A stretch of 32,000 nt of DNA. Source: Candidatus Brocadia sp. WS118 (GTDB taxonomy: Bacteria; Planctomycetota; Brocadiia; Brocadiales; Brocadiaceae). The stretch lies in NCBI GenBank assembly GCA_007618135.1, contig PHFX01000170.1, positions 516 through 32,515 of the forward strand. Direction: 5' to 3'. Under the pieces are notes generated by a model that was given only the letters and a program-made list of their open reading frames with translations, did not search any database and had not been told where the DNA came from. Of this stretch, positions 10,501 through 31,158 are shown piece by piece. Positions within the stretch are counted from its first letter, which is position 1. The number at the start of each line of letters is the position of its first letter. The position numbers were made by a program, and so were the translations under genes.

Positions 10501-11076
10501 ATGAGTTCGTTTGATTTCGCAAGATGTACGGCATTTAATTTACCCAATCGGTTAACCTTATTAAGGCTCTTGCTGTCCATTATATTTTTTATCTTCTTGT
10601 CGTACCGTTATTACAATGTTGCCCTTGGCTCATTTTTATTTGCCTGGTTAACTGACTGGCTGGATGGTTATTTGGCGAGAAAAAAGGGACTTCTTACTGA
10701 TTTTGGACGTATCGCAGACCCATTTGTCGATAAGATCATTGTCTGCGGCGGGTTTATCTTACTCATACAGCATGCCCATGATATCATACCACCGTGGATG
10801 GTAGTAGTAATTGTGGCGAGAGAATTTCTGGTTAACAGCCTCAGAAGTTTTTCAGAATCAAGAGGAATTGAATTTGGCGCAACCATATGGGGAAAGGCAA
10901 AGATGTTTGTCCAGTCGCTTACCATTAGCCTCATCTTGCTCTTTTTCTCGCATCTCAAAGACTTTGCCATCATCAAACAGGGGATTGTTTTTATGCTATG
11001 GCTTACCGTTATTATTACATTAGTTTCCGGGATTAAATACATGGTAAAAGCAGGTCCCGCAATCCTGGCAAAGTAG
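10501..11076 (+). CDS. pgsA: CDP-diacylglycerol--glycerol-3-phosphate 3-phosphatidyltransferase
   Basis: 191-aa membrane protein with the CDP-alcohol phosphatidyltransferase motif DWLDGYLARKKGLLTDFGRIADPFVDK. It starts immediately after the rimO stop. Confidence 0.88.
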   Translation: MSSFDFARCTAFNLPNRLTLLRLLLSIIFFIFLSYRYYNVALGSFLFAWLTDWLDGYLARKKGLLTDFGRIADPFVDKIIVCGGFILLIQHAHDIIPPWMVVVIVAREFLVNSLRSFSESRGIEFGATIWGKAKMFVQSLTISLILLFFSHLKDFAIIKQGIVFMLWLTVIITLVSGIKYMVKAGPAILAK

Positions 11077-11090
11077 CCGTTTGAATTTTG

Positions 11091-11140
11091 TTTATGCTGT
11101 TTTTGGGTGGCATGGACAAACTTGTATATCCATGTTTAAC
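11091..11140 (+). repeat. REP-like dispersed element, copy a (TTTATGCTGTTTTTGGGTGGCATGGACAAAC...GTTTAAC)
   Basis: It shares the GGGTGGCAYGGACAA core with copies at 18141, 27636 and 29270. It has an internal hairpin CATGGA/TCCATG. It lies between the convergent pgsA and Uma2 genes. Confidence 0.7.
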
Positions 11141-19508: not shown

Positions 19509-19531
19509 AAAAGCAGCGATTGGGTAATGGT

Positions 19532-21997
19532 ATGATTGGTATCCGCACAAAACTTATGCTTTTTACGAGTACCCTGGTAATTATGATTAGCACCCTGAGT
19601 TGCCTCTTCTTTTTAATTCATGCAAAAAGGCAGGAGGAGGAGGCTCTGAAAAATTTTGGTATGTCACTGATCATGCTGCTCGCTCAGGATAATGAAGTGA
19701 GATATGCTATGACGTACACCCAACCTGCATTTCTTGACACCCCTGTTAAAAGGATACGAGCGCTTGACCGGGAAGAGGAACTCGGATACCTGCGTATATC
19801 AAATATCCAAAAAACCCTGATCGAAGAAAAGGCGACCTGGATGAATATCGATATGAAAGAAATTCCCACCCAAAAAGGGAGAGAAAACCAGGATGTACTC
19901 CTTACCGATTGTACGCTTGCTTGTTCACGGAAGGTATTTTACGATTTTTCTCTGGCGGTGGCTGCGGAATCGACTTTCTCTGAAGAAGCATTTGCTGCCC
20001 AGGTTCTTGAAGAAATCAAGATGAATACACAACAGCAACCTTTGGGTTTTATACAAATCGGTTTATCTTCTCATAAATTGAGTAAGAGGATTCACGAGAT
20101 TTTTTGGAAGAGTATTATTCCGCTGGGTTTAATTATTATTTCCGGCGGAATAAGTATTACCATTTTCCTTACGAAGTACCTTGTTTCACCGTTACGGCAA
20201 ATGGCTGATGTCACCCTTGATATTGCCAAAGGTGATCTCACCCGTACCGTGGATGTCCAGTCACAGGATGAAATGGGGCAATTGTCGGTGAATTTCAACA
20301 AGATGACCCGGTCGCTGAAGAAGTCGTATGACGATCTGAAGCAAGAAATTGCAGATCGCAGGAGGGCTGAGGAATTATTAGCGTTTCGGGTAAAAATCGA
20401 AGGACTTATTACTGCCATATCGGCAAACTTTATTAATCTTCCATCTACTGAAGTTGATGCAGGCATACATCGTGCCTTGAAACAGATCGGGGAGTTTTCT
20501 GGTGTTGACCGCAGTTATGTCTTTCTTAATTCAGATGGGGGAAAGAGGATGGATAACACCCACGAGTGGTGCGCCAGGGGGATTCAGTCACAAAAAGAGA
20601 ACCTTCAGGGGGTGCTCGTTGAGCAGTTTCCTTGGGGCATGGAAAAGCTCAGGCGATTCGAAACGATCCATATCCCCAGGGTCAATGACCTGCCGGATGA
20701 CGCAATGACCGAGAGAGCACTGCAGCAATCGCAACAAGTGCAGTCGTGCGTAATCGTTCCCATGATTTATGGTGGATCATTGTTTGGGCTTTTGGGGTTT
20801 GATTCGGTACGAAGAGAGAAAACCTGGACACATGAAGACATTGGGATGTTAAAAATAGTAGCGGAAATATTTGTTAATGCCTTAGAGCACAAACGCATGG
20901 AAGAGGCGCTCCGCATAAGCGAAGGAAAGTATAGAATGCTGCTTGAAAACCTTCCACAGAGGATATTTTACAAGGATGAAAATTTACGGTATGTATCGTG
21001 TAATGAGAATTATGCCAGGGATTTGAAGATTCATACGGATGAAATACAAGGAAAGACGGATTATGACTTTTATCCAGAGGTGCTCGCGGAAAAATACCGC
21101 TCGGATGACAAACGAATCATGAGATTGGAAAAAACAGAAGAAATAGAAGAGAAATATATTAACAACGGACAAGAGCTGACTGTCCATACGGTGAAAACCC
21201 CCATAAAAGATGAGAAAGGAAGTGTTATTGGGGTATTAGGTATTTTCTGGGACATCACCGAGAAAATAGCCTTGCAGACGGAGGCTATACGGTCTAGGCA
21301 TCTGGTATCAGTAGGTGAACTTGCGGCAGGTGTGGCTCACGAAATTAACAATCCCATAACGGGTATTATCAACTGTGCCCAGATACTGGTAAATAAAAGT
21401 GAAAAGGGAACCAGAGAGGAGGACATTGGCCATCGAATTGTAAAAGAAGGAAACCGGATAGCTGATATCGTAAAGAGTCTCCTCTCCTTTGCCAGGCCGG
21501 GTGACAGAAAAGAACAAAGGGTTTCAGTCCATGTCTCTGAAATTATGTCTGATACACTTGTTCTGATGGGTTCACAGTTGAAAAAGGATAATGTTGAATT
21601 GGTTTTAAACATTCCCCCCGAATTGTCAAAGGTAAGTGCGCACCATCAGCAAATTCAACAGGTCTTTTTAAATTTGATAAGTAATGCACGATACGCCTTG
21701 AATTCTAAATACCCGGGAAGGAATGAGAATAAAATTCTTGAGATTCGGGGTGAATCGATAACCATTAATAATCGCCCCTATGTGAAAGTTACTTTTCATG
21801 ATAAAGGTACTGGAATATCTGCAGATATTCTGGATAAGGTTATGAATCCATTTTTTTCCACGAAACCAAGAGGGACGGGCACTGGGCTTGGCTTGAGCAT
21901 CAGTCACGGCATTGTAAATGATCATGGCGGTAAACTCCTGATAGATTCTGTTGAAAATGAATTTACGAAGGTTACGGTTGTGCTGCCGTCAGGGTAA
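19532..21997 (+). CDS. Sensor histidine kinase (2 TM + extracytoplasmic domain, HAMP, GAF, PAS, HisKA, HATPase_c)
   Basis: H-box AAGVAHEINNPITGI, N-box LNLISNARYAL, and G-boxes DKGTGI and GTGLGLSISHGIV. The HAMP domain follows TM2 (LVSPLRQMADVTLDIAKGDLT). The PAS domain includes GVLGIFWDITEK. TTG 19520 is an alternative start. Confidence 0.88.
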   Translation: MIGIRTKLMLFTSTLVIMISTLSCLFFLIHAKRQEEEALKNFGMSLIMLLAQDNEVRYAMTYTQPAFLDTPVKRIRALDREEELGYLRISNIQKTLIEEKATWMNIDMKEIPTQKGRENQDVLLTDCTLACSRKVFYDFSLAVAAESTFSEEAFAAQVLEEIKMNTQQQPLGFIQIGLSSHKLSKRIHEIFWKSIIPLGLIIISGGISITIFLTKYLVSPLRQMADVTLDIAKGDLTRTVDVQSQDEMGQLSVNFNKMTRSLKKSYDDLKQEIADRRRAEELLAFRVKIEGLITAISANFINLPSTEVDAGIHRALKQIGEFSGVDRSYVFLNSDGGKRMDNTHEWCARGIQSQKENLQGVLVEQFPWGMEKLRRFETIHIPRVNDLPDDAMTERALQQSQQVQSCVIVPMIYGGSLFGLLGFDSVRREKTWTHEDIGMLKIVAEIFVNALEHKRMEEALRISEGKYRMLLENLPQRIFYKDENLRYVSCNENYARDLKIHTDEIQGKTDYDFYPEVLAEKYRSDDKRIMRLEKTEEIEEKYINNGQELTVHTVKTPIKDEKGSVIGVLGIFWDITEKIALQTEAIRSRHLVSVGELAAGVAHEINNPITGIINCAQILVNKSEKGTREEDIGHRIVKEGNRIADIVKSLLSFARPGDRKEQRVSVHVSEIMSDTLVLMGSQLKKDNVELVLNIPPELSKVSAHHQQIQQVFLNLISNARYALNSKYPGRNENKILEIRGESITINNRPYVKVTFHDKGTGISADILDKVMNPFFSTKPRGTGTGLGLSISHGIVNDHGGKLLIDSVENEFTKVTVVLPSG

Positions 21998-22120
21998 GGG
22001 TTTTGACAGAGATGGGAAAAGGCGTCTCTGATGCAAAGTTTAATCATGATGTCTTTGGCCTATCCTTCTTACGATAATGGAATGCCAATTGCTTTTGTCG
22101 TAGATAGGAAAGAGGGAAAG

Positions 22121-23833
22121 ATGAAGAAAAAAATTCTTATAATCGACGATGAAGAGAATATCAGGTACACCTTTGAAAGCTTTCTTACAGACGAGGGATA
22201 TGAGGTGGCATCTGCAAAGGACTATAGGGATGCTCTCGTCGCGATTGATGAGGCAGATTTTGATGTGATATTTACCGATATTCTCTTGGGTGATAAGAGT
22301 GGTGTTGATATCCTGAGAAACATTAAAGAAAAGAATCTCAATTGTCCCGTTGTTATGATCACCGGTGCCCCTGATATTGGAACTGCCTCGGAAGCTCTGC
22401 GGTTGGGTGCCTTTGACTATATTCCTAAACCTATATTGCAGGACACTTTGGTGCGTGTTGCAAAGGTGGCATTACAGCATAAAACTCTCAAAGACGAAAA
22501 GGAGAGATACCAAACAAACCTTGACGCAATATTTCGAAGTGTAAGGGATGCAATTATTACGGTGGATAAGAATTTAATGGTAGTCGAGATGAATCCTGCG
22601 GCTGAACAAATCTGTGATCTGTCTCATAATGTCATTGGAAATCTCCTCAACTCTTTTCAGACACATTGTGGTGGAAAGTGTTTTGAAATTCTTCGTGCAA
22701 CCATTGAAGAAAAACAACCTCTGGAAATACCAAGTCTTGAATGCAGGCATAACCATCGCCCGCATCAGGTTGTGAGCATCTCAACCAATCCTCTCTTAAA
22801 CAATAAAGGTATGTTTTCAGGCGCTGTTTTGGTGGTAAGAGATGATACGCATTTGGTTGAACTAGAGCGCGATATGAAAGAGCGGCGTAAATTCCATAAT
22901 ATGATAGGGAAGAGTGAGAAGATACAGATGATTTACTCGTTTATAGAAGATTTGGCAGACGTCCAGACGACAGTCCTGGTGCTAGGGGAAAGCGGGACGG
23001 GTAAGGAACTGGTTGCCGAAGCAATCCACTACAGCGGTGCACGCAGTAAAAAACCGCTGGTCAAGGTAAACTGCTCGGCTTTATCAGAGAATCTGCTTGA
23101 AAGTGAGCTCTTTGGGCACGTAAAGGGCGCTTTTACCGGCGCTCTACAGAATAGGATTGGCAGGTTTCAGAAAGCTGAAGGAGGCACGATTTTTCTGGAT
23201 GAAATTGGCGACATCTCTCCGCGGATACAACTCCAACTGCTGAGGGTTTTGCAGGAAAGAGAATTTGAGCGCGTTGGAGACTCAAACCCCATCAAGGTCG
23301 ATGTTCGGGTTATTGCCGCGACTAATCAAAACCTTCGCGAAAAAGTCAAGCGGGGCGAGTTCCGCGAAGACCTTTATTACCGGCTCAAGGTAGTGGAAAT
23401 GTGCCTGCCGCCGCTAAGAGACAGGAAAGAAGACATACCGTTGCTGGTAAAGCACTTTGTGAAAAAATTCAATAAAAAGTTAAATAAAGAGATTACTGCC
23501 ATTTCTGCGGATGTCCAGAAGATATTTATGAACTACACATGGCCGGGAAATATCCGGGAATTGGAACATACTATGGAGCATGCATTTATTCTTTGCCACC
23601 AAAACGTCATTACGGCGGATCACCTGCCCCTCAATTTTAAAGACCTTAATCAAACGAATAAGACTTCTTCTGAAGATACAAAAATTGAAGAATCGCAGTC
23701 AATTATTCGGGCACTTGAGCTGGCTTTATGGAATAAAGCAAAAGCTGCACGCCTGTTAGGCATGAGCCGAAGGACGCTCTACCGGAAAATAAGAGACCTT
23801 AAAATAGGCGTGAAGGATGATTCCAGAATATAA
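22121..23833 (+). CDS. Sigma-54-dependent response regulator (REC-PAS-AAA+ bEBP-Fis HTH)
   Basis: REC domain KKILIIDDEENI...DVIFTDILL. PAS domain between REC and AAA+. Walker A GESGTGKE. GAFTGA loop (VKGAFTGA). FLDEIGD. C-terminal HTH AARLLGMSRRTLYRKI. I chose ATG 22121, which is preceded by GAGGGAAAG, rather than the track start at 22031. Confidence 0.9.
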   Translation: MKKKILIIDDEENIRYTFESFLTDEGYEVASAKDYRDALVAIDEADFDVIFTDILLGDKSGVDILRNIKEKNLNCPVVMITGAPDIGTASEALRLGAFDYIPKPILQDTLVRVAKVALQHKTLKDEKERYQTNLDAIFRSVRDAIITVDKNLMVVEMNPAAEQICDLSHNVIGNLLNSFQTHCGGKCFEILRATIEEKQPLEIPSLECRHNHRPHQVVSISTNPLLNNKGMFSGAVLVVRDDTHLVELERDMKERRKFHNMIGKSEKIQMIYSFIEDLADVQTTVLVLGESGTGKELVAEAIHYSGARSKKPLVKVNCSALSENLLESELFGHVKGAFTGALQNRIGRFQKAEGGTIFLDEIGDISPRIQLQLLRVLQEREFERVGDSNPIKVDVRVIAATNQNLREKVKRGEFREDLYYRLKVVEMCLPPLRDRKEDIPLLVKHFVKKFNKKLNKEITAISADVQKIFMNYTWPGNIRELEHTMEHAFILCHQNVITADHLPLNFKDLNQTNKTSSEDTKIEESQSIIRALELALWNKAKAARLLGMSRRTLYRKIRDLKIGVKDDSRI

Positions 23834-23874
23834 GCGCCTATTGTCCCTTTGCTGCGACTTTCTTGGTTTTTTAT

Positions 23875-23934
23875 AAAAAAGTGTGCCATGTCACACTTTG
23901 TGACGTCACAAAGTGTGACATGGCACACTTTTTT
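23875..23934. terminator. 60-bp perfect palindrome flanked by an A6 run upstream and a T6 run downstream. It is a bidirectional intrinsic terminator and/or a protein-binding dyad array.
   Basis: AAAAAAGTGTGCCATGTCACACTTTGTGAC|GTCACAAAGTGTGACATGGCACACTTTTTT. I checked base by base that the arms are exact reverse complements. It starts 42 nt after the response-regulator stop. Confidence 0.65.
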
Positions 23935-24047
23935 ATTGTTTTCAAATAGATGCATTTCTATTAATTTTATTCCTTCCACGCATCTCGTAATAAAAATTCC
24001 GCAACAATTCAGGTTTTTTGAAACAACAAAATTATGTTTCAATTTTC

Positions 24048-24063
24048 TGGCATATGATTTGAC
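24048..24063 (+). promoter_or_regulatory. Candidate sigma-54 promoter (TGGCAT-N5-TTGA)
   Basis: The GG and TTG elements have the correct -24/-12 spacing. The -12 element reads GA rather than the consensus GC. It lies ~130-160 bp downstream of the palindrome dyads and ~215 nt upstream of the PAS ORF. Confidence 0.3.
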
Positions 24064-24277
24064 AGCCAGTAAAAAAGAATTATGGGGATGAAAATGTATG
24101 GGTAAATTTTCCATGTAAGGAAGGAGGAAAAGTATGAATATTTTTTTTGCCTTTTTAATAATCAGCATTGTGATTGCGATCACAACTATCGTGTTCTCGT
24201 AAGATTTGTGATTCTCATGGTCTCTAAAATATCAACGCGTACGTTGATTTTCATAATTTCGTTGGAGGGTTGCTCAA

Positions 24278-24670
24278 GTGGAGATGTCAAAGGTTGTTTA
24301 TAAATTGATGGAAAACGAGCTGATGAGGATATTGTTTTCTGGCGTAACCGATCTCACCTATATTTATGATGTGGAGGGAAATATCTTATTTGTAAATAAA
24401 GTATTTGAAAAATTTACGGGTCACAGGCCTGAGGAGTTTTACGGGAAACCATTTGCAACTCTTTTTGACAAGGAAAATTTAAAAAAGGCGCAGGACGCCT
24501 TTGCGGAGACATTGAAAGGAAATAGTCCGGAATACGAGCTTTATTTCCGGAATACAAAGGTGTTGTGTGAGTATAGGAACTTTCCGTTAAAGGATCAAAG
24601 CGGAAATCTTGTTGGCATAATGGGTATAGCCAGGGATATCACTGCCCGACGCAAGATAAGGAGTAGCTGA
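24278..24670 (+). CDS. Stand-alone PAS domain protein, apparently the surviving N-terminal part of a longer signalling gene
   Basis: 130 aa with a PAS fold pattern (ILFVNKVFEKFTGHRPEEFYGKPF...GIMGIARDITARRK). The ORF ends just after the DIT..R PAS boundary, where multidomain proteins normally continue. GTG 24278 or ATG 24284 may be the start. Confidence 0.6.
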   Translation: MEMSKVVYKLMENELMRILFSGVTDLTYIYDVEGNILFVNKVFEKFTGHRPEEFYGKPFATLFDKENLKKAQDAFAETLKGNSPEYELYFRNTKVLCEYRNFPLKDQSGNLVGIMGIARDITARRKIRSS

Positions 24671-24883
24671 AGGCACTGAATGAATCTATGGAGATAAGGG
24701 TGATTGAACATACCTCAAGACTGATGGAGCTAAATGAAGAGTTGGTGAAGGAAATGAAGGAAAGAGTATGACTCGAAAGGGAATTAAAGCAAGGTATGGA
24801 GAAACAAAAAATCCTTAACGGGGATGATTCAGACTATGTCCCTGACCGTTGAATCAAGAGAACCTCATTCTGCTCTTCGTTAG
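24652..24883 (+). pseudogene. Decayed continuation of the PAS gene: a coiled-coil linker plus the start of an HD-GYP-like domain, broken by frameshifts and stop codons
   Basis: An alternative frame reads QDKE*LKALNESMEIRVIEHTSRLMELNEELVKEMKERV*LERELKQGMEKQKILNG. A third frame then reads MIQTMSLTVESREPHSALR*. Compare the consensus of HD-GYP domains, L.VE.RDPYT.GH. I recognised this by eye. Confidence 0.4.
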
Positions 24884-24904
24884 GTTTATCCTGGATGCCG
24901 TGAA

Positions 24905-25207
24905 ATGAAATATAAAATATCAGTCATCATTGTGGGAGGAGATCATTTAGGTAGCATACCAAAGGAGCTTGATAAAATCGGAATTACGGAAATTCAACAC
25001 CTGACAGGCAGGACCGGGCAGAAGATGCGAGGGAAAATCCCGGAGAAGGTTGATTTTATAATCCTCCTCTACGATTTCGTTAATCATAATCTGGCTTATA
25101 AAGTAAAGAAATTGGCTATTAACCGGAACATACCTATTATCTATGCAAAGAGATCGTGGTCTTCCATTTATCAAAAGATAAAGGATAGCCGGATAACTAT
25201 TTTCTGA
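24905..25207 (+). CDS. DUF2325 domain protein
   Basis: 100 aa. The pattern VIIVGGDHLG...HLTGR...KIPEKVDFIILLYDFVNHNLAYKVKKLA...PIIY matches my recollection of the DUF2325 family. Confidence 0.65.
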   Translation: MKYKISVIIVGGDHLGSIPKELDKIGITEIQHLTGRTGQKMRGKIPEKVDFIILLYDFVNHNLAYKVKKLAINRNIPIIYAKRSWSSIYQKIKDSRITIF

Positions 25208-25405: not shown

Positions 25406-25434
25406 TTGACATTAATTTTACAACTCTGTACAAT
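25406..25434 (+). promoter_or_regulatory. Near-consensus sigma-70 promoter TTGACA-17 nt-TACAAT upstream of acpS
   Basis: It has a perfect -35 hexamer, a 17-nt spacer, and a -10 hexamer matching 5 of 6 positions. It lies 75 nt upstream of the acpS ATG. Read directly from the sequence. Confidence 0.55.
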
Positions 25435-25508
25435 GCTTTTTTATTAAATAGCTACTTATGCTACAAGTAGTTACAATGATTAAAATTGCCAGTTAATAGT
25501 TATCGTTT

Positions 25509-25895
25509 ATGTATGTTGGTATTGACATTATAGAAATAAAACGCATCGAAAAATTGTTCTCTGCTCATGAGGATTTCTTACGAAGGATTTATACAAAAAA
25601 AGAGGTAGAGTATTGCAACCAAAAAAAGAACAAATATCAACATTTTGCGGCTCGTTTTGCCTCAAAAGAGGCAATGTTCAAGGCGCTGGGAACTGGCTGG
25701 GTTGGTAAAATGAAATGGACGGATATTGAGCTCTTAAATGACGAAAAAGGGAGACCCTATGTGAATCTCTATGGCGGGGTAAAAGAATTGGCAGATAAGA
25801 AACATATCGATAATATTTCTGTATCTTTATCCCACTGCCAGGACTATGCTATTGCCCAGGTTTTGTTGGTGCCAAAAAAAGAGGAATGTTCATGA
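25509..25895 (+). CDS. acpS: Holo-[acyl-carrier-protein] synthase (4'-phosphopantetheinyl transferase, AcpS type)
   Basis: 128 aa with GIDIIEIKRIEK, FAARFASKEAMFKALGTG and ISVSLSHCQDYAIAQVLL. Confidence 0.9.
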   Translation: MYVGIDIIEIKRIEKLFSAHEDFLRRIYTKKEVEYCNQKKNKYQHFAARFASKEAMFKALGTGWVGKMKWTDIELLNDEKGRPYVNLYGGVKELADKKHIDNISVSLSHCQDYAIAQVLLVPKKEECS

Positions 25896-27373
25896 AAAGA
25901 CTTGTATTAATCAATCCACATCCGATTGGAAATGTTGGAGAGGAAAATGTCTCGGTATTAAATCAAATGCCGGTGAATCTCGGCTATCTGAAGGTGTTAA
26001 CGCCAAAACACTGGCAGGCTGACATCATCGATGAAACCCAGGAACTTGCCATTGATGAAAATACCGGGGATATTACGTTTGGGGGAGCAGACCTGGTTGG
26101 CATTACCTCGGTGAGTTATCAGGCGAATCGGGCATATCAAATAGCTACTGCCTGCAGGAAACGGGGTATTCCCGTGATTATGGGCGGTATCCATGCAACA
26201 AGTTACCCGGAAGAAGCGTCAAAATACGTAGACTGCGTTGTGACCAGAGAAGCGGTAACTACGTGGGAAAAGATTATTGGCGACTTTGAAAAAGGCTGTC
26301 TCCAGAAAAGATACGATGGTGTTCTGACACCGATGGAGCTATATCAGGGATTGCGCCCGGATAGAAAATATTTGAAGGATAAATATAAATACCGTTATTC
26401 AGGTATCATAACTACTGCCGGGTGTCCTTTTAGCTGTGAGTTCTGTTCTGTGCCTCAGTTTCAGGGCAGGAAATACCGTGAAAGGCCCATCGAAGACGTC
26501 CTTGATGAATTCGAATCCATTAAGGGTCAATATCGCGGGCTGATCCTGACGGATGAAAATTTTTACGGACACAGCAAAAAATCCAACGAGCGCGTTCGGG
26601 ACCTTTTCAAAGGCATGGTGGAAAGGGGTATTTACCAGAACTGGTTCGGGTTTACCTCGCTCAATATCTATAAGGATGATGAAACCCTTGAATACATGAA
26701 AAAGAGCGGTTGCGTTGGAGTGCTCATTGGGATTGAATCCATCAATGAAGAGGCATTGAAGACGATGAACAAGAACGTAAATTTGCGCATCTCCATCGAA
26801 AATTATTTTGAGGCTATAGCCAATATCCGTAAACACGGTCTTGCCGTGTGGGGGACGATGGTCTTTGGAAACGATGCCGATACCCCGGAGACCTTTAAGC
26901 AGGTTGCTGATTTTGTCCTTGATTCACAGGTCGATATCATGACCTGCGGCATTTTGTGCCCGTTCATTAATACGCCGCTGTATCACCGGCTGAATGGCGA
27001 AGGAAGGCTTTTCAGAACAAAATTTCCGGAGGACTGGAAGTATTACACATCGCATCATCTCACCTATGTCCTGAAAAACATGTCCCTTCAGGAACTCATC
27101 GATGGATTTCAATATCTGTACGACAGGATTTATGCCACCGAGGTATTGCGGCAGAGATTCCAGAATGCGAAAGAGGTGCTGAAAGATAATATGAATGCCG
27201 CCATGTTTGCCTTCAGGGTCAATCTTGATTGGCAGTCCGTTTACCAGCATCTGATTCAAAATCTTAAAGAATTGCAGACATCAGGGTTCTATGATGAGGC
27301 ATTAAAACGATATAACCAATCGAAAAAAGCCGGGAAAAAGGTGGAATTGACACCGATTGAGGTGTCATCTTAA
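25892..27373 (+). CDS. B12-binding (class B) radical SAM protein with a DUF4070-like C-terminal region
   Basis: The N-terminal cobalamin-binding-type Rossmann domain reads DLVGITSVSYQANRAYQIATACRKRGIPVIMGGIHAT. The radical SAM cluster motif is AGCPFSCEFCSV (CxxxCxxC). The ATG at 25892 overlaps the acpS TGA (ATGA) and is preceded by AAGAGGAA. ATG 25886 is an alternative start. Confidence 0.88.
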   Translation: MKRLVLINPHPIGNVGEENVSVLNQMPVNLGYLKVLTPKHWQADIIDETQELAIDENTGDITFGGADLVGITSVSYQANRAYQIATACRKRGIPVIMGGIHATSYPEEASKYVDCVVTREAVTTWEKIIGDFEKGCLQKRYDGVLTPMELYQGLRPDRKYLKDKYKYRYSGIITTAGCPFSCEFCSVPQFQGRKYRERPIEDVLDEFESIKGQYRGLILTDENFYGHSKKSNERVRDLFKGMVERGIYQNWFGFTSLNIYKDDETLEYMKKSGCVGVLIGIESINEEALKTMNKNVNLRISIENYFEAIANIRKHGLAVWGTMVFGNDADTPETFKQVADFVLDSQVDIMTCGILCPFINTPLYHRLNGEGRLFRTKFPEDWKYYTSHHLTYVLKNMSLQELIDGFQYLYDRIYATEVLRQRFQNAKEVLKDNMNAAMFAFRVNLDWQSVYQHLIQNLKELQTSGFYDEALKRYNQSKKAGKKVELTPIEVSS

Positions 27374-27524
27374 AAGCAGGCATCCCTCTTTTCTTTAGAG
27401 AGGTTGAGTATTTTTGAGGTCAACATATTCGCTGGAACTATTTTGTGAATAGTTGACCTTTCTTATTTAAAGTTTTGTTCAGCACCCCCGCCTGACATCT
27501 TCAATCGGGGAGGAGAAACTGTTT

Positions 27525-27562
27525 TCCCCACCCCTTGCGGGAGGGGTTAGGGGAGGGGGTGG
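27525..27562 (+). repeat. G/C-tract hairpin element, copy 1 (CCCCACCCCTTGCGGGAGGGGTTAGGGGAGGGGGTGG)
   Basis: It is related to the elements at 27722-27750 and 27796-27826. It contains four G3-5 tracts. Confidence 0.7.
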
Positions 27563-27635
27563 ACAGCCGGGTAGGTTAGATTAAGAAATAGTTTGATGGA
27601 TTCGGCGTAAAAACCAAATTGTATAGGCTTTTCAG

Positions 27636-27691
27636 TTTATTTAAGCGGTTTTTTGGGTGGCATGAATAAACCCTGCTTGTCTGCGTTTAAC
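27636..27691 (+). repeat. REP-like dispersed element, copy c
   Basis: The 27-nt block TTTATTTAAGCGGTTTTTTGGGTGGCA is identical to 29270-29296. The downstream half is degenerate and the hairpin is not well conserved. It ends in GTTTAAC, as copy a does. Confidence 0.75.
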
Positions 27692-27721
27692 TTAATTGAA
27701 CATAATTTTAGCACAAACTAT

Positions 27722-27826
27722 TCCCCTCTTGGGAGGGGTTGGGGGTGGGTACCTTGATCGTGAAAATCAGTGAATATCTCACGAATTACCGGCTTACCCG
27801 CCCCTAAATCCCCTCCCAAGAGGGGA
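27722..27826. repeat. MITE-like unit: ~30-bp imperfect terminal inverted repeats (TCCCCTCTTGGGAGGGGTTGGGGGTGGGT ... ACCCGCCCCTAAATCCCCTCCCAAGAGGGGA) flanking 45 bp
   Basis: The arms at 27722-27750 and 27796-27826 are near reverse complements. Each arm also contains its own hairpin, CCCCTC-loop-GAGGGG. No coding capacity is present. Confidence 0.6.
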
Positions 27827-27850
27827 CTTTCTCACCTGAGAACGAACACT

Positions 27851-29062
27851 ATGTCAAAGGTCGTAATTACAGGGTTAGGATTGGTCACACCCGTCGGGGT
27901 TGGCGTCAGGCAAAGCTGGGAATCGTTCATCCAGGGCAGGAACGGCGCCAACGAGATGAAGTCCTTCGACACCTCAAAATATAAGGTGCATCGTTCCTGT
28001 GAAGCAAAAAATTTCCAATGGGACTTTGAACTAAAGAATCAGATCAAAGAAAACACGATCCATAAATATGTCTATTGCGCAGCCAGGGAGGCGCTCCAGG
28101 AAAGTGGTTTATTGCATGATAAGAAATTCAACCGGGAGCGATTTGGTATTGCCATAGGAACCTTGGCCGCCGAGTTGACGCCGTTTGAGAGACTCTTGCG
28201 ATTAGACACCTCGAAAAAAGACAACGGTTTCGATAAAATCGTTGCTGCCGTTTACCCGCCCAATTCGATCACCAATATCCTGTCTAAAAATTTTGATTTT
28301 GAAGGTCCCACCATGATCTCGCTGAACGCCTGCTCGTCCGGCAACCACGCCATTGCATGGGCATATGACCGCCTTGTGGATAATAAGGTTGATGTAGTAA
28401 TGGTCGGTGGAGGCGACATGATCCCTCAAACGGAATTTACCCACTTTCATAACCTCAAGGCCTTAGCGCCCGAACGTTGTCAACCCTTCGACAAAAACCG
28501 TCAGGGACTTATGATTGGCGAAGGGGCAGGGATATTGATTATGGAACGCTATGAGTTTGCCAAAAAACGCGGTGCAGCGATTATTGCTGAGATGGTGGGT
28601 TATGGGTTGAGCTGCGATGGATTTCATATGACGGCGCCCCATCCAGAAGGTGACGGGGCGGTAAAGTGCATGAGCGATGCGCTAAAAATGGCAAACATTT
28701 CTTCTGCTGATATCGGTTACATCAACGCACATGGCACAGGAACCCCGCACAATGACAAGACCGAAACAACCGCTATAAAACGCGTATTTGGCGAAGGTGC
28801 ATATAGGATTCCCTGCAGTTCCACCAAATCGATGATTGGCCACCTCATGGGCGCAGCCAGCGCTGTGGAATCAGTTGTCTGCTGTCTGGTATTGAGACAT
28901 GGAGTAGTTCCTCCGACAATTAATTACGAAATCCCCGATCCGGAATGCGATCTCGATTACGTACCCAATGCAGCGCGTGAGGTAAAAGTGGATCACGCAT
29001 TAAATAATTCCTTCGCCTTCGGCGGAAACAATGCAACTACAATATTTAGTAGGATGGGTTAA
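27851..29062 (+). CDS. Beta-ketoacyl-ACP synthase, KAS I/II (FabF/FabB-like), catalytically intact
   Basis: 403 aa from MSKVVITGLG. The active-site Cys is in LNACSSGNHAI. The catalytic His residues are in GFHMTAPHP and INAHGTGTPHND. It also has STKSMIGHLMGAAS and FAFGGNNA. The track start at 27770 runs through a repeat element, so I rejected it. Confidence 0.88.
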   Translation: MSKVVITGLGLVTPVGVGVRQSWESFIQGRNGANEMKSFDTSKYKVHRSCEAKNFQWDFELKNQIKENTIHKYVYCAAREALQESGLLHDKKFNRERFGIAIGTLAAELTPFERLLRLDTSKKDNGFDKIVAAVYPPNSITNILSKNFDFEGPTMISLNACSSGNHAIAWAYDRLVDNKVDVVMVGGGDMIPQTEFTHFHNLKALAPERCQPFDKNRQGLMIGEGAGILIMERYEFAKKRGAAIIAEMVGYGLSCDGFHMTAPHPEGDGAVKCMSDALKMANISSADIGYINAHGTGTPHNDKTETTAIKRVFGEGAYRIPCSSTKSMIGHLMGAASAVESVVCCLVLRHGVVPPTINYEIPDPECDLDYVPNAAREVKVDHALNNSFAFGGNNATTIFSRMG

Positions 29063-29269
29063 ACATGTCCTGAGCTTGCCGAATGGACGAAGCAAACCTC
29101 AAGACTGGTTATCAATCTTGCAGATTGAACCATATATTTGAACGTTACTCTAAAGCGTGAACTTGTGCATTGAGACGGAATTATACCAAATGTTTTGGTT
29201 CAATCGAGGACGAATGAACCAGCAAAGACCAGCAAAGGGACGATTGTTCCGGCAAAGAGGAATCTTCAT

Positions 29270-29323
29270 TTTATTTAAGCGGTTTTTTGGGTGGCACGGA
29301 CAAACTTTGTTCGTCCGTGTTTT
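29270..29323 (+). repeat. REP-like dispersed element, copy d, with a terminator-like hairpin (CACGGACAAAC-TTT-GTTCGTCCGTG + TTTT)
   Basis: A 27-nt block is identical to copy c. It is followed by an 11-bp stem with one A-C mismatch, a 3-nt loop and a T4 run. The element ends 12 nt before the KS2 ATG. Confidence 0.75.
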
Positions 29324-29335
29324 GTCGGGTATGCA

Positions 29336-30571
29336 ATGAAAAAACGAGTCGTTATAACCGGTTTAGGTGTCGTATCCCCTCTGGGATGCGGAAAAGAGGC
29401 ATTCTGGAACAATCTTCTTGATGGAAAATCTGGCATTGCACCGATGTCAACCCTCGACCTCTCTCCGTATAAATGTAAATTGGGAGGCGAAGTGAGGGAC
29501 CTTAAACCGGAGGTATATCTTGGCAGTAAAGGCTTAAAATATCTAAACAAGGGCACACGCTTTCTGGGGTCTGCTGCTAAGATGGCAATTGACGATGCAA
29601 GGCTTCCTACGGACGGTTCCCTGTCGGAACAGATGGGCATTGTCATCGGTTCATCCCTGGGCAATTTTTCTGAGACAACGGATTATTTTTATGAAATCAT
29701 CAGGAACAATCCCTCTGAACTATCTCCCATGCTCAGCTATGACGTTGCCTTGAATTCTTCCATTAATTACGTATCGGTCATCTTTAAAATCAAGGGACTT
29801 GCCCGCACGGTATCTGCGGGTTTCACGTCAAGTACCGATGCCATTGGAGATGCGTATAAAATGATTCAGCGGGATATGGCACAGGTAATCGTGGCGGGTG
29901 GTGTCGAGCAGATATCCATTGATCTGTATCTCATATTTTACCTGCGCGGTTTGTTGTCCGGTCTTGATGGCACACAAGAGGCGAGCCTGCCCTTTGATAA
30001 GGAGAGAAACGGTTTTGTCATGGCAGAAGGCAGTTACGTGGTCATCCTGGAAGAATTCCAGCATGCCCTGGACAGGGGCGCTCATATCTATGCGGAGGTA
30101 AAGGGATTTGGGAATACCTTCGTGGGTGGCAAAGACCATCCGGCAGAGGTACGTATGTGTCGTGCCGAAAAGGCAATGCGTGAGGCACTGGAAGATGCTG
30201 AAGTAAAGAAAGAAGACGTTGACTTCATCAGTGCAAATGCAAATGGATGCAAGATGCAGGACGCAATCGAGGCGAAGGCAATCCAATCGTTATTCGGCGC
30301 AGGGAGCATTCGTATTCCCGTATCTGCAATAAAATCGAACATTGGCGAATCGTACGGAACCGCCGGTGCTGCCCAGCTCATTTCATCAATCATGTCGATA
30401 AACACAGGTAAAATACCGCACATCATGAATCACACTAAAAAAGATCAGACAATAAATTTGAATCTCATCATAGACAAACCACTCAAAAAAGAAATCCAGA
30501 ATACGTTAATAAATACCATGGATTATGATGGGAATAATTCATGTCTGGTAGTGAGCAGGTTATGCAAATAG
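29336..30571 (+). CDS. Ketosynthase-fold paralogue lacking the Cys-His-His triad (chain-length-factor-like or 'dead' KS partner)
   Basis: 411 aa from MKKRVVITGLG. A position-by-position alignment to the upstream KS gives NACSSGNHAI vs AGFTSSTDAI (Cys->Phe), GFHMTAP vs GGKDHPA (His->Lys) and NAHGTGT vs SANANGC (His->Asn). The fold motifs are retained (PFDKERNGFVMAEG, IKSNIGES). Confidence 0.85.
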   Translation: MKKRVVITGLGVVSPLGCGKEAFWNNLLDGKSGIAPMSTLDLSPYKCKLGGEVRDLKPEVYLGSKGLKYLNKGTRFLGSAAKMAIDDARLPTDGSLSEQMGIVIGSSLGNFSETTDYFYEIIRNNPSELSPMLSYDVALNSSINYVSVIFKIKGLARTVSAGFTSSTDAIGDAYKMIQRDMAQVIVAGGVEQISIDLYLIFYLRGLLSGLDGTQEASLPFDKERNGFVMAEGSYVVILEEFQHALDRGAHIYAEVKGFGNTFVGGKDHPAEVRMCRAEKAMREALEDAEVKKEDVDFISANANGCKMQDAIEAKAIQSLFGAGSIRIPVSAIKSNIGESYGTAGAAQLISSIMSINTGKIPHIMNHTKKDQTINLNLIIDKPLKKEIQNTLINTMDYDGNNSCLVVSRLCK

Positions 30572-30579
30572 TATAATGC

Positions 30580-31158
30580 TTATTGAGTGTGTTTTATCTG
30601 ATATATATTATGGGCAACGTCTGGAATGATAGCGTAATCAGCTTTGATTCCGCATTCATTCAGTAAATATTCTAAGCCCAGCGCGGAGCCCCGTTCTTCA
30701 TCCGCAACCCCTGCCAAAAGAAATTGTCCTTTCAGAAACCTTGCAACGGCCATCATGGAGGCCATCTGCCCTTTGTTGTCTGAAGAGCCCCTGCCATAGA
30801 TTCTGCCATCTTCTCTCCATGCCTCAAAGGGATTCCTCTCCCAGTTCCAGTCGTCGCCTGCCGGCACAACGTCTAAATGACATGCAACCAGCAATGCGGG
30901 GGCGGACGGCTGTTTGTCCCTGCCTCCAATATATCCGATGATATTTGTCCGATCCTTCGTTTTTTCAAAGAGTTCATAGGGAATCTGGAGTGATTGAAAG
31001 AAATCCGCAACAACTCGCGCTGCAAGGATTTCATTTCCTGGAGGATTTTCGGTCTTTGTATTGATTAATTTGCATGCAAGATCGACGATCTCCTTTTCTT
31101 CACCTCTCAGGTATTTGCCAATAAACTCCCTGAGATTGTTTGACGTATCGTATTTCAT
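30580..31158 (-). pseudogene. Truncated M20-family metallopeptidase (ArgE/DapE/CPG2-like), N-terminal catalytic half only
   Basis: 192 aa with HLDVVPAGDDW, GRIYGRGSSDNKGQMAS and GVADEERGS. The homology stops after ADYAIIPD, at about 180 aa. The dimerisation domain and C-terminal half that are typical of ~380-aa M20 enzymes are absent. Its stop codon lies 8 nt from the convergent KS2 stop. Confidence 0.65.

What the first reader, a model, noticed from the sequence alone, without database searches (positions are those of the whole stretch)
25406..30571. acpS - B12 radical SAM - KS - dead-KS cassette: candidate uncharacterised ACP-dependent lipid/polyketide tailoring system (ladderane-type candidate if the host is an anammox bacterium)
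Seen in the sequence:
- A near-consensus promoter (TTGACA-17-TACAAT) drives acpS.
- acpS overlaps a class B (cobalamin-domain) radical SAM gene by ATGA.
- An intact KAS I/II ketosynthase follows, then a paralogue with no catalytic triad.
- The cassette contains no ACP, acyltransferase, ketoreductase, dehydratase or enoyl reductase gene, so it is not a normal fab operon.

Established knowledge:
- Active/inactive KS pairs act as heterodimers that set chain length or shape. Examples are KS-CLF in type II PKS and the KS pairs of aryl-polyene clusters.
- Class B radical SAM enzymes perform methylation and other C-C chemistry on unactivated carbons.
- Comparative-genomic proposals for ladderane (concatenated cyclobutane) lipid synthesis in anammox bacteria centred on radical SAM genes clustered with atypical fabF-like genes. 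To my knowledge no enzyme for that chemistry has been demonstrated.

Inference: these four genes form one functional unit that builds or modifies an unusual ACP-bound acyl chain.
Basis: partly seen in the sequence, partly recalled or inferred. Interest (0 to 1): 0.85.

Follow-up and report, generated by a model that had tools for sequence, protein, structure and literature searches.

The report
Known anammox ladderane-candidate gene cassette
These four genes are the Brocadia copy of a cluster (Kuenenia kuste2802-2805) proposed in 2009 as a candidate for making the ladder-shaped lipids of anammox bacteria, so the cassette is real but not new; its chemistry is still unproven, and related cassettes also occur in a few non-anammox bacteria.

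Summary
The window carries a near-consensus promoter, acpS, a cobalamin-type radical SAM gene overlapping it by ATGA, an intact FabF-like ketosynthase (KS1) and a ketosynthase with no catalytic triad (KS2).

The host is a Candidatus Brocadia bacterium. The cassette is the orthologue of Kuenenia kuste2802-2805, which Rattray et al. proposed for ladderane synthesis in 2009 and Javidpour et al. expressed in E. coli in 2016 without a product. It is therefore already known, and its function is still undemonstrated.

What I add:
- The gene order holds in nearly all of 49 Brocadiales species loci.
- The ancestral operon continues with a FadH-like reductase, an enoyl-CoA hydratase, a short-chain dehydrogenase (SDR) and a small isomerase-like protein. 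Brocadia has lost these from this site.
- The radical SAM, KS1 and KS2 are old paralogues of the "Cluster I" trio (kuste3608, 3605, 3606), whose ketosynthase pair is a proven KS/chain-length-factor heterodimer.
- Four non-anammox loci (Thermodesulfobacteriota/"delta proteobacterium", Blastocatellia, one unnamed) carry orthologues of both clusters adjacent or fused.

Most likely mechanism: a KS/chain-length-factor pair plus a radical C-C-forming enzyme acting on ACP-bound chains, together with Cluster I. A ladderane product is plausible but unproven.

The parts
25406..25434 (+). Sigma-70-type promoter, TTGACA-17-TACAAT, about 75 nt upstream of acpS
   Evidence: It matches 11 of 12 positions and is the best site in the region. 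The sequence was read directly. The same motif lies at the same relative position in Brocadia loci L008, L009, L012, L013, L015 and L018.
25509..25895 (+). acpS, a holo-ACP synthase (4'-phosphopantetheinyl transferase), 128 aa; orthologue of kuste2802
   Evidence: Pfam ACPS 72 bits. TIGR00516 scores 105 bits against a cutoff of 59.8. It is 87% identical to the Brocadia sp. AMX2 protein. It lies directly upstream of the radical SAM gene in 44 of 45 Brocadiales loci. Rattray et al. list Kuste2802 as the only acpS in Kuenenia (PMC2649909).
25892..27373 (+). Cobalamin-domain (class B) radical SAM protein, 493 aa; orthologue of kuste2803 (the 'r3' subfamily in this report)
   Evidence: It has B12-binding, Radical_SAM and DUF4070 domains and a CxxxCxxC motif. 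No NCBIfam equivalog cutoff is reached. The AlphaFold2 model has pLDDT 89.5, and its nearest folds are AprD4, MgmA, TsrM, CysS, TokK and OxsB at 19% identity or less. Identity is 97% to Brocadia, 83-85% to two Kuenenia species representatives (K. hertensis L032 and Kuenenia sp. L034), 76% to Scalindua and 54% to the paralogue kuste3608.
27374..27850 (.). Intergenic spacer of 477 nt holding G-rich palindromes and one copy of a 58-nt dispersed repeat; no ORF longer than 34 aa
   Evidence: There is no Rfam family match and no ACP-sized ORF. The spacer length varies from 2 to 749 nt among Brocadiales.
27851..29062 (+). KS1, an intact FabF-like ketosynthase, 403 aa; orthologue of kuste2804 and paralogue of amxFabF2 (46% identity)
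   Evidence: The Cys/His/His triad is present. The NF005589 subfamily score is 413.8 against a cutoff of 387. The FabF equivalog TIGR03150 scores 416.5 against 493.75, so that cutoff is not reached. The best solved structure is 9s5h chain B at 419 bits.
29336..30571 (+). KS2, a ketosynthase paralogue without a catalytic triad (Phe, Asn, Glu), 411 aa; orthologue of kuste2805 and paralogue of amxFabFmut (37% identity)
   Evidence: The active-site columns read SAGFTSS, ISANANGCK and NIGESYG. This equals the Kuste2805 signature F163 N298 N300 C302 K328 E333 in Rattray Table 2. The best solved structure is 9s5h chain C at 293 bits. The sequence is 100% identical to P0121 on JGI contig Ga0131077_10001597.

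Best explanation
The cassette is the Brocadia orthologue of Kuenenia kuste2802-2805. It is one module of the specialised, ACP-dependent lipid pathway that anammox bacteria carry in addition to their ordinary fab operon.

Proposed working, in order of decreasing support:
1. AcpS converts apo-ACPs into holo-ACPs. This covers the housekeeping ACP and the anammox-specific amxACP.
2. KS1 (active) and KS2 (dead) form an obligate heterodimer of the ketosynthase/chain-length-factor type, as their paralogues amxFabF2 and amxFabFmut do. The heterodimer decarboxylates malonyl-ACP and condenses it onto short or unusually shaped acyl-ACP chains. KS2 shapes the substrate tunnel.
3. The cobalamin-type radical SAM enzyme performs a radical C-C bond-forming step, either methyl transfer or ring closure, on the ACP- or pantetheine-tethered chain.
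4. In most anammox lineages a FadH-like reductase, an ECH, an SDR ketoreductase and a small isomerase-like protein (MIase), encoded in the same operon, complete the beta-carbon processing. In Brocadia these genes lie elsewhere.
5. The module acts together with Cluster I (kuste3603-3608). The most likely end product in anammox bacteria is the ladderane acyl chain.

Step 1 follows from family membership. Steps 2 and 3 rest on paralogy and fold. Steps 4 and 5 rest on gene neighbourhood only.

The confidence of 0.55 is for the whole chain including the ladderane product. Identity with kuste2802-2805 alone is about 0.97, and the KS1/KS2 heterodimer about 0.75.
For: Orthology to kuste2802-2805:
- Gene order and the residue signature of the dead ketosynthase match Rattray Table 2.
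- The Kuenenia hertensis locus L032 has the same four genes at 70-85% identity.

Conservation:
- Across 49 Brocadiales species loci, acpS is present in 44 of 45, KS1 in 40 of 40 and KS2 in 32 of 33, counting only contigs long enough to show them.
- acpS and the radical SAM gene often overlap by ATGA. KS1 and KS2 overlap or lie within 20 nt in 13 of 40 loci.

Heterodimer:
- KS1 and KS2 group with amxFabF2 and amxFabFmut respectively.
- Their best PDB hits are chains B and C of one entry, 9s5h.
- The Cluster I pair is experimentally a KS/chain-length-factor-like heterodimer (bioRxiv 10.64898/2026.05.19.726425).

Radical SAM:
- It has a class B fold, and its neighbours include TokK and CysS, which were crystallised with pantetheinylated substrates.

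Link to Cluster I:
- In the non-anammox loci L059, L060, L061/L093 and L090, orthologues of both clusters lie adjacent or fused. Bootstrap support is 78-100.

Extended operon:
- The reductase, ECH, SDR and MIase genes follow KS2 in Scalindua, Jettenia and other lineages.

Not the housekeeping FabF:
- The canonical FabF is Kustd1386, in a separate fab operon (PMC2649909; Granatino et al. Fig. 1e).
Against: - No activity or product has been shown for any protein of this cassette.
- Expression of kuste2802-2805 in E. coli gave no new fatty acid, and most of the proteins were insoluble (PMC4790861).
- Orthologous modules exist in bacteria not known to make ladderanes. The conserved chemistry therefore need not be cyclobutane formation.
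- acpS is reported as the only acpS copy in Kuenenia. Its position could reflect housekeeping co-regulation rather than pathway membership.
- Intergenic gaps of 477 and 273 nt in the window leave co-transcription unproven. No RNA data were available.
- Heterodimer formation by KS1 and KS2 was not modelled or measured.
Confidence: 0.55

Rival explanations
1. The module builds a non-ladderane lipid feature that anammox bacteria share with other anaerobes. One example would be a mid-chain methyl branch such as 10-methylhexadecanoic acid. The cobalamin radical SAM enzyme would act as a C-methyltransferase on a short acyl-ACP, and the KS1/KS2 pair would elongate the branched intermediate.
For: - Orthologous radical SAM-KS-dead KS units occur in Thermodesulfobacteriota/"delta proteobacterium" and Blastocatellia genomes that are not anammox bacteria.
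- Most characterised class B radical SAM enzymes are methyltransferases. The nearest folds include MgmA, TsrM, CysS and TokK.
- The Cluster I enzymes prefer C6-C8 chains. From my own knowledge, methylation at C2 of a C8 intermediate followed by four elongations would give a 10-methyl-C16 acid. Anammox bacteria are reported to contain that acid (Sinninghe Damste et al. 2005, FEBS J; not re-read here).
Against: - Two ketosynthase pairs, a dedicated ACP and FabZ, and two or three radical SAM paralogues seem far too much machinery for one methyl branch.
- Liao et al. place the gain of kuste2805 at the origin of the anammox clade (PMC9387917).
- The lipids of the non-anammox carriers are unknown.
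- I found no paper linking this family to branched fatty acids.
Confidence: 0.25
2. The four genes are not one pathway. acpS is the housekeeping phosphopantetheinyl transferase that happens to lie here. KS1/KS2 is an alternative initiation module for general fatty acid synthesis, acting as a malonyl-ACP decarboxylase. The radical SAM gene has an unrelated role.
For: - acpS has no paralogue in Kuenenia (PMC2649909).
- The paralogous amxFabF heterodimer only decarboxylated malonyl-ACP and formed acetoacetyl-ACP in vitro.
- The gaps of 477 and 273 nt in the window, and the variable spacers in other Brocadia, allow separate transcription.
Against: - The order acpS-radical SAM-KS1-KS2 is kept across the whole order, often with overlapping stop and start codons.
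- The radical SAM-KS-dead KS unit stays together in distant phyla.
- One non-anammox supercluster also contains an ACPS gene.
- Kuenenia has FabH and a canonical FabF elsewhere.
Confidence: 0.12
3. The cassette is part of a type II polyketide-like secondary-metabolite cluster of the aryl-polyene or ishigamide type. Its product would be a secreted or pigment-like polyene rather than a membrane lipid.
For: - It has the KS/chain-length-factor architecture.
- The Cluster I FabZ hits ApeI/ApeP-like families.
- The ishigamide ketosynthase 6kxd is among the PDB hits.
- A MacB-type ABC permease flanks the L090 supercluster.
- antiSMASH calls 'ladderane' clusters in many phyla (PMC9902471).
Against: - The cassette is universal and syntenic in a whole order of slow-growing, specialised bacteria.
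- It sits among housekeeping genes.
- It is fused to the sole acpS.
- No polyunsaturated or polyene products have been detected in anammox bacteria (PMC10139942).
Confidence: 0.06

Closest known systems
Kuenenia stuttgartiensis kuste2802-2805 cluster (Rattray et al. 2009; Javidpour et al. 2016)
   Same: The four genes, their order and the dead-ketosynthase signature (F163 N298 N300 C302 K328 E333) are the same. The host is also an anammox bacterium. Identity to the Kuenenia hertensis locus is 70-85%.
   Different: Only species-level divergence. In this Brocadia the intergenic spacers are longer and carry repeats. A truncated M20 peptidase gene abuts the 3' end.
Anammox 'Cluster I', kuste3603-3608 (amxACP, amxFabZ, amxFabF2, amxFabFmut, phytoene-dehydrogenase-like protein, B12 radical SAM)
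   Same: It also contains an active plus dead FabF-like pair and a closely related cobalamin radical SAM protein. Identities to the window proteins are 46%, 37% and 54%. It is likewise conserved across Brocadiales. It lies next to the homologue of this cassette in the non-anammox superclusters.
   Different: This is a different locus and a different paralogue set. Cluster I has its own ACP, FabZ and desaturase-like gene and no acpS. Its dead subunit has Val or Thr rather than Phe at the Cys position. Its gene order is also different.
Type II polyketide KS/chain-length-factor heterodimers (actinorhodin KS-CLF 1tqy; ishigamide Iga11/Iga12 6kxd)
   Same: Two adjacent thiolase-fold genes, one with and one without the catalytic triad, often translationally coupled.
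   Different: The classical chain-length factor has Gln at the Cys position, which drives decarboxylation; this protein has Phe. Sequence similarity is higher to FabF than to polyketide ketosynthases. No aromatase or cyclase genes are present.
Class B cobalamin-dependent radical SAM enzymes (TsrM, TokK, CysS, MgmA, OxsB, BchE, HpnJ)
   Same: An N-terminal Rossmann-type B12 domain, a radical SAM barrel with CxxxCxxC and a helical C-terminal domain. TokK and CysS were crystallised with pantetheinylated substrates, a precedent for carrier-bound chains.
   Different: Identity to any solved member is 19% or less, and every NCBIfam cutoff is missed. The family (r1, r2 and r3) forms its own cluster at 50% identity, and the next relatives are at 44% or less. 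The reaction is unknown.

Membership tests
kuste2802-2805 cluster of anammox bacteria | Gene order acpS, B12 radical SAM, FabF-like, non-canonical KS on one strand | tested here: met
   Window ORFs. The same order occurs in K. hertensis L032 and in nearly all of the 49 Brocadiales loci. The gene functions listed in PMC4790861 Table 2 match.
kuste2802-2805 cluster of anammox bacteria | Dead ketosynthase with Phe163, Asn298, Asn300, Cys302, Lys328, Glu333 (Rattray Table 2) | tested here: met
   The window KS2 columns read SAGFTSS, ISANANGCK, AIKSN and NIGESYG, against Table 2.
kuste2802-2805 cluster of anammox bacteria | Host is a member of Brocadiales | tested here: met
   All four proteins are 87-97% identical to Brocadia sp. 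AMX2. The flanking synteny is shared with Brocadia loci L008 and L009.
Anammox Cluster I (kuste3603-3608) | amxACP, amxFabZ and a phytoene-dehydrogenase-like gene next to the ketosynthase pair and the radical SAM gene | tested here: not met
   None of these genes is in the window. The Cluster I loci L062-L089 are separate places in the same genomes.
KS/chain-length-factor heterodimer | Adjacent paralogues, one with Cys-His-His and one without | tested here: met
KS/chain-length-factor heterodimer | Physical heterodimer with a shared substrate tunnel | not testable with these tools
   Only single-chain prediction is available. Indirect support: the best PDB hits of KS1 and KS2 are chains B and C of entry 9s5h.
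KS/chain-length-factor heterodimer | Gln at the active-site Cys position of the inactive subunit (classical type II PKS) | tested here: not met
   The window KS2 and all anammox orthologues have Phe. One non-anammox orthologue has Trp.
Class B (cobalamin-dependent) radical SAM | CxxxCxxC cluster motif plus an N-terminal B12-binding domain | tested here: met
   Pfam PF04055 scores 75 bits. PF02310 scores 33.1 bits against a cutoff of 32.1. C178, C182 and C185 are invariant. The fold matches TsrM, TokK, OxsB, CysS and MgmA.
Class B (cobalamin-dependent) radical SAM | Actual cobalamin binding and use | not testable with these tools
   The top fold hit, AprD4, is annotated as a diol dehydratase rather than a methyltransferase. 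From my own knowledge AprD4 has this architecture but does not use cobalamin, so the fold alone does not prove cobalamin use.
TIGR04072 rSAM_ladder_B12 (NCBIfam 'lipid biosynthesis B12-binding/radical SAM protein') | Score at or above the curated cutoff of 360 bits | tested here: not met
   81.9 bits. That model describes a different radical SAM family.
Canonical FabF (TIGR03150 equivalog) | Score at or above 493.75 bits | tested here: not met
   KS1 scores 416.5 bits and KS2 324.2 bits. KS1 passes only the broader subfamily model NF005589 (413.8 against 387).
AcpS-type phosphopantetheinyl transferase | ACPS domain above the curated cutoffs | tested here: met
   PF01648 scores 72.1 against 25. 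TIGR00516 scores 105.1 against 59.8.

The most novel reading that the evidence does not exclude
The cassette is half of an older, laterally mobile lipid pathway with two KS/chain-length-factor pairs, two or three paralogous cobalamin radical SAM enzymes, a dedicated ACP and FabZ, and ECH, SDR and isomerase-like genes. Anammox bacteria split it into kuste2802-2805 and kuste3603-3608, while some Thermodesulfobacteriota and an unnamed high-GC bacterium keep it contiguous. Blastocatellia keep a reduced form: KS1-like, KS2-like and the r3 and r1 radical SAM genes, separated by one DUF374 gene. If so, the two anammox clusters work as one pathway. Ladderane-like lipids, or their evolutionary precursor lipids, are then made outside anammox bacteria, and the contiguous versions are a better starting point for reconstitution than the anammox genes.
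Probability: 0.4. Interest if true: 0.75.

Novelty: already known. Interest (0 to 1): 0.42.

Why it matters
How cells build concatenated cyclobutane (ladderane) chains has been an open problem since 2002. No enzyme for the ring-forming step is known, and anammox bacteria cannot be manipulated genetically.

This cassette is one of the few standing candidates, so re-finding it adds no new hypothesis. The comparative results do sharpen the existing one in four ways:
- They tie kuste2802-2805 to Cluster I by gene fusion in other phyla.
- They predict a second KS/chain-length-factor heterodimer.
- They show the ancestral operon carried its own reductive enzymes.
- They point to non-anammox carriers whose lipids and genes could be examined or expressed.

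Tried and rejected
- An exact look-up of the 495-aa radical SAM ORF found nothing because the real start is two codons later.
- I briefly suspected a chimeric or transferred radical SAM gene. Its named hits were 'Wujingus' and Scalindua, whereas the KS2 hits were Brocadia. Direct comparison showed the Brocadia AMX2 radical SAM is 97% identical, and Wujingus is filed under Brocadiaceae. Rejected.
- I looked for a hidden ACP gene or a riboswitch in the 477-nt spacer before KS1. There is no ORF longer than 34 aa and no Rfam match.
- I tested whether the 58-nt repeat before both ketosynthase genes is a sigma-54 promoter, since a sigma-54 activator lies upstream. The spacing does not fit TGGCAC-N5-TTGC. 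The repeat is dispersed and occurs only in close relatives. I treat it as an intergenic repeat.
- Locus L042, labelled Thermodesulfobacteriota, looked like a non-anammox carrier. Its GC content (41.5%) and its identities equal those of Scalindua, so it is probably a mis-binned contig.
- The representative-library search has no names or context. It only showed that the r1/r2/r3 family is one tight cluster.
- I could not name the organism of assembly GCA_037446155.1.
- A literature search for a link to 10-methyl fatty acids found nothing.

Full report
**What is in the window**

The region 25.4-30.6 kb holds four genes on the + strand.
- acpS, 25509-25895.
- A 493-aa radical SAM gene. Its most plausible start, ATG 25892, overlaps the acpS stop as ATGA.
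- KS1, a 403-aa ketosynthase, 27851-29062.
- KS2, a 411-aa ketosynthase, 29336-30571.

Pfam and NCBIfam give the following.
- acpS has an ACPS domain.
- The radical SAM protein has B12-binding, Radical_SAM and DUF4070 domains. It misses every curated NCBIfam cutoff, including TIGR04072 'rSAM_ladder_B12' (81.9 against 360 bits).
- Both ketosynthases have the two ketoacyl-synthase domains.
- KS1 passes only a FabF subfamily model, not the FabF equivalog.

An alignment shows KS1 keeps Cys-His-His. In KS2 Phe replaces the Cys, Asn the first His and Glu the second His. TTGACA-17-TACAAT at 25406-25434 is the best promoter-like site in the region. It recurs about 100 nt before acpS in six other Brocadia loci.

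**Whose genome, and which cluster**

KS2 is 100% identical to a protein on JGI metagenome contig Ga0131077_10001597, which contains the window sequence. The four proteins are 87-97% identical to those of Candidatus Brocadia sp. AMX2. The upstream histidine kinase, sigma-54 regulator, PAS and DUF2325 genes are syntenic with that genome.

Rattray et al. (PMC2649909) list Kuste2802 as the only acpS of Kuenenia and Kuste2803 as a B12 radical SAM protein. They describe Kuste2805 as a non-canonical 'FabB' with F163, N298, N300, C302, K328 and E333. That is exactly the KS2 signature, which K. hertensis also shows.

Later papers treat the same cluster as follows.
- Javidpour et al. (PMC4790861) treat kuste2802-2805 as 'a complete cluster'. 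They expressed it in E. coli and saw no new fatty acids, and the proteins were mostly insoluble.
- A review names Kuste2803 as a potential cyclobutane-forming catalyst (PMC9204698).
- No paper up to 2026 reports an activity for these four proteins.

The finding is a rediscovery of a published candidate.

**Conservation**

A scan of one genome per GTDB species with a radical SAM alignment returned 49 Brocadiales loci of this type. They come from Brocadia, Jettenia, Kuenenia, Loosdrechtia, Wunengus, Scalindua, Subterrananammoxibius, Anammoxibacter and groundwater lineages.

Counting only contigs long enough to show each gene, acpS precedes the radical SAM gene in 44 of 45 loci. KS1 follows in 40 of 40 and KS2 in 32 of 33. 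The acpS and radical SAM genes are 20 nt or less apart in 27 of 45 loci, often with the same 4-nt overlap. KS1 and KS2 overlap or lie within 20 nt in 13 of 40.

In Scalindua, Jettenia ecosi and one groundwater lineage the operon continues directly after KS2. The extra genes are:
- a 675-aa Old-Yellow-Enzyme/FadH-like reductase;
- an enoyl-CoA hydratase (ECH);
- an SDR ketoreductase;
- a muconolactone-isomerase-like protein (MIase).

Several other lineages keep the reductase-ECH block after KS2, further downstream in some, and three more keep at least the reductase. In Wujingus it lies about 4.7 kb downstream. Brocadia, including the window, has lost these genes from this site.

**Relation to Cluster I**

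The best Kuenenia stuttgartiensis hit of the window radical SAM protein in the first search was KustE3608. It lies in Cluster I: amxACP, amxFabZ, amxFabF2, amxFabFmut, a phytoene-dehydrogenase-like gene and the radical SAM gene. The window radical SAM, KS1 and KS2 are 54%, 46% and 37% identical to KustE3608, KustE3605 and KustE3606. The two clusters are thus paralogous triplets at separate loci in the same genomes.

Granatino et al. (bioRxiv 10.64898/2026.05.19.726425) showed the following for amxFabF2 and amxFabFmut.
- They form a KS/chain-length-factor-like heterodimer.
- The heterodimer decarboxylates malonyl-ACP.
- It prefers C6-C8 probes.

The best solved-structure hits of KS1 and KS2 are chains B (419 bits) and C (293 bits) of one entry, 9s5h. 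I take 9s5h to be that heterodimer, but the preprint text held here gives no PDB code. By paralogy, gene adjacency and frequent translational coupling, KS1/KS2 is most likely a second heterodimer of this kind. This is an inference.

**The radical SAM enzyme**

An AlphaFold2 model from a 26-sequence alignment is confident (pLDDT 89.5). It has the class B layout. Foldseek finds AprD4, MgmA, TsrM, CysS, TokK and OxsB, all at 19% identity or less. By sequence alone nothing in the PDB scores above 48 bits.

In a library clustered at 50% identity the whole family collapses into one cluster. The next relatives are at 44% or less. The fold therefore fits radical C-C chemistry on a tethered substrate. 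It does not say whether the reaction is methylation or ring formation.

**Outside anammox bacteria**

Three species-representative genomes that are not Brocadiales carry radical SAM proteins 59-61% identical to the window protein. That is closer than the paralogue KustE3608. They are:
- a 'delta proteobacterium' MAG (L059, 381-kb contig, 69% GC);
- a Guaymas Thermodesulfobacteriota MAG (L060, 68% GC);
- a soil Blastocatellia MAG (L061, 50% GC, flanked by typical acidobacterial genes).

The gene content of these loci and of two more found through protein hits is as follows.
- L059 reads FabF2-like, FabFmut-like, desaturase-like, three paralogous radical SAM genes (r1 = 3608-type, r2, r3 = this type), KS1-like, KS2-like, ECH, SDR and a fourth radical SAM gene.
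- L090 is an unnamed assembly, GCA_037446155.1 (506-kb contig, 65% GC). It reads ACP, FabZ, KS, degenerate KS, r1, r2, r3, KS, dead KS, MIase, ECH, SDR, ACP, FabH, ACPS, KS, KS-like and a MacB-type permease. Identities to the anammox counterparts are 29-57%.
- L093, a forest-soil contig whose r3 radical SAM protein falls in the same 90%-identity cluster as one NCBI names as Blastocatellia, has KS, dead KS, r3, a DUF374 gene and r1.

The dead subunits keep Phe (or Trp) and Glu at the former Cys and His positions. In bootstrapped neighbour-joining trees each anammox paralogue groups with its own non-anammox counterparts. Support is r3 95, r1 99, KS1 100, KS2 100, FabFmut 93 and FabF2 78 out of 100. 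The duplications therefore predate the anammox clade.

The two anammox clusters are neighbours elsewhere, which is guilt-by-association evidence that they work together. It also means the statement that these genes are unique to ladderane producers needs qualification. antiSMASH 'ladderane' calls in other phyla have been noted before without analysis (PMC9902471). In 2009 Rattray et al. saw 'very limited' similarity of Kuste2803 to genes of other organisms.

These carriers are rare. They are 3 of the 80 best loci from 185,579 species genomes, plus L042. L042 is labelled Thermodesulfobacteriota, but its 41.5% GC and Scalindua-level identities mark it as a probable mis-binned contig.

**Judgement**

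The identity of the cassette is settled. It is a real and well-conserved operon head in a Brocadia genome, orthologous to kuste2802-2805.

The most likely mechanism has three parts.
- AcpS primes the carrier proteins.
- A KS1/KS2 heterodimer elongates ACP-bound chains.
- The cobalamin radical SAM enzyme modifies those chains by radical chemistry.

In most lineages the operon's own reductase, ECH, SDR and isomerase-like genes complete the processing. The module probably works in concert with Cluster I.

Whether the product is the ladderane chain remains open. The non-anammox orthologues allow two readings. Either related lipids exist elsewhere, or the conserved chemistry is something simpler, such as C-methylation. 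Co-transcription, heterodimer formation, the radical SAM reaction and the product could not be tested here.

**Surroundings**

The rest of the window is housekeeping. It encodes RNase III, PheA, TIM, SecG, YicC, Gmk, dUTPase, FtsK, a MiaB/RimO-type enzyme, a CDP-alcohol phosphatidyltransferase, ParA and a two-component system with a sigma-54 activator. No Rfam family is present.

Noticed in passing
window 27631-27688, 29265-29322 and 11067-11123: A repeat of about 58 nt (core TTTTTGGGTGGCAYGRA) lies just upstream of both ketosynthase genes and once in a distant convergent intergenic region. Three copies are found against 0.03 expected. It also occurs before KS2 in Brocadia carolinensis (L031) and after the Cluster I radical SAM gene in another Brocadia (L068). 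It looks like a dispersed intergenic repeat, and it does not fit a sigma-54 promoter.
   Followed up: partly
window 27480-27830: G-rich palindromes (CCCCTC..GAGGGG type) fill the 477-nt spacer before KS1. They include a long hairpin at 27722-27826 that ends 25 nt before the KS1 start. Spacer length at this position ranges from 2 to 749 nt among Brocadiales.
   Followed up: partly
window 23873-23936: A perfect 64-nt palindrome (two 32-nt arms, no spacer) lies between the sigma-54 response-regulator gene and the PAS-domain gene.
   Followed up: no
window 30580-31158 (- strand): A truncated M20 peptidase ORF (192 aa, covering only the first half of the domain) converges on KS2 with 8 nt between the two stop codons. 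Brocadia sp. AMX2 has different genes here, so this is a rearrangement breakpoint. It coincides with the place where other lineages carry the reductase-ECH-SDR-MIase genes.
   Followed up: partly
window 19520-25207; L008 and L009 1-5706: A histidine kinase, an NtrC-type sigma-54 activator, a PAS protein and a DUF2325 protein precede acpS in this genome and in Brocadia sp. AMX2. They are absent from that position in Scalindua and Wujingus. Whether they regulate the cassette is unknown.
   Followed up: no
L091 3080-4516 (Candidatus Bathyanammoxibius amoris): A third radical SAM subfamily (r2) sits between r1 and r3 in the non-anammox superclusters. In Bathyanammoxibius it occurs as a stand-alone gene with no ketosynthase neighbours.
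   Followed up: partly
L042 (labelled uncultured Thermodesulfobacteriota): This contig carries the cassette at Scalindua-level identities (radical SAM 77%, KS1 64%) and has 41.5% GC. It is probably a Scalindua contig mis-binned into a Thermodesulfobacteriota MAG.
   Followed up: partly
L005 18575-18603 and L020 11958-11986: The same TTGACA-17-TAYAAT promoter motif precedes the detached FadH-like reductase-ECH block in Wujingus and in a groundwater Brocadiaceae genome. This suggests the split-off half acquired or kept its own strong promoter.
   Followed up: no
L026 10440-14900; L012 and L015 between KS1 and KS2: Some Brocadiaceae have 0.9-4.4 kb inserted between KS1 and KS2, so the pair is not always contiguous.
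   Followed up: no
L093 11424-12125 and L061 8553-9278 (- strand): In the Blastocatellia-type loci a DUF374 gene sits between the r3 and r1 radical SAM genes. DUF374 is a lysophospholipid-acyltransferase-like family by my recollection, which I did not check. If so, it hints that the product enters membrane lipids.
   Followed up: no
window 9151-11076: A MiaB/RimO-type radical SAM methylthiotransferase gene is immediately followed by a CDP-alcohol phosphatidyltransferase (phospholipid head-group) gene.
   Followed up: no
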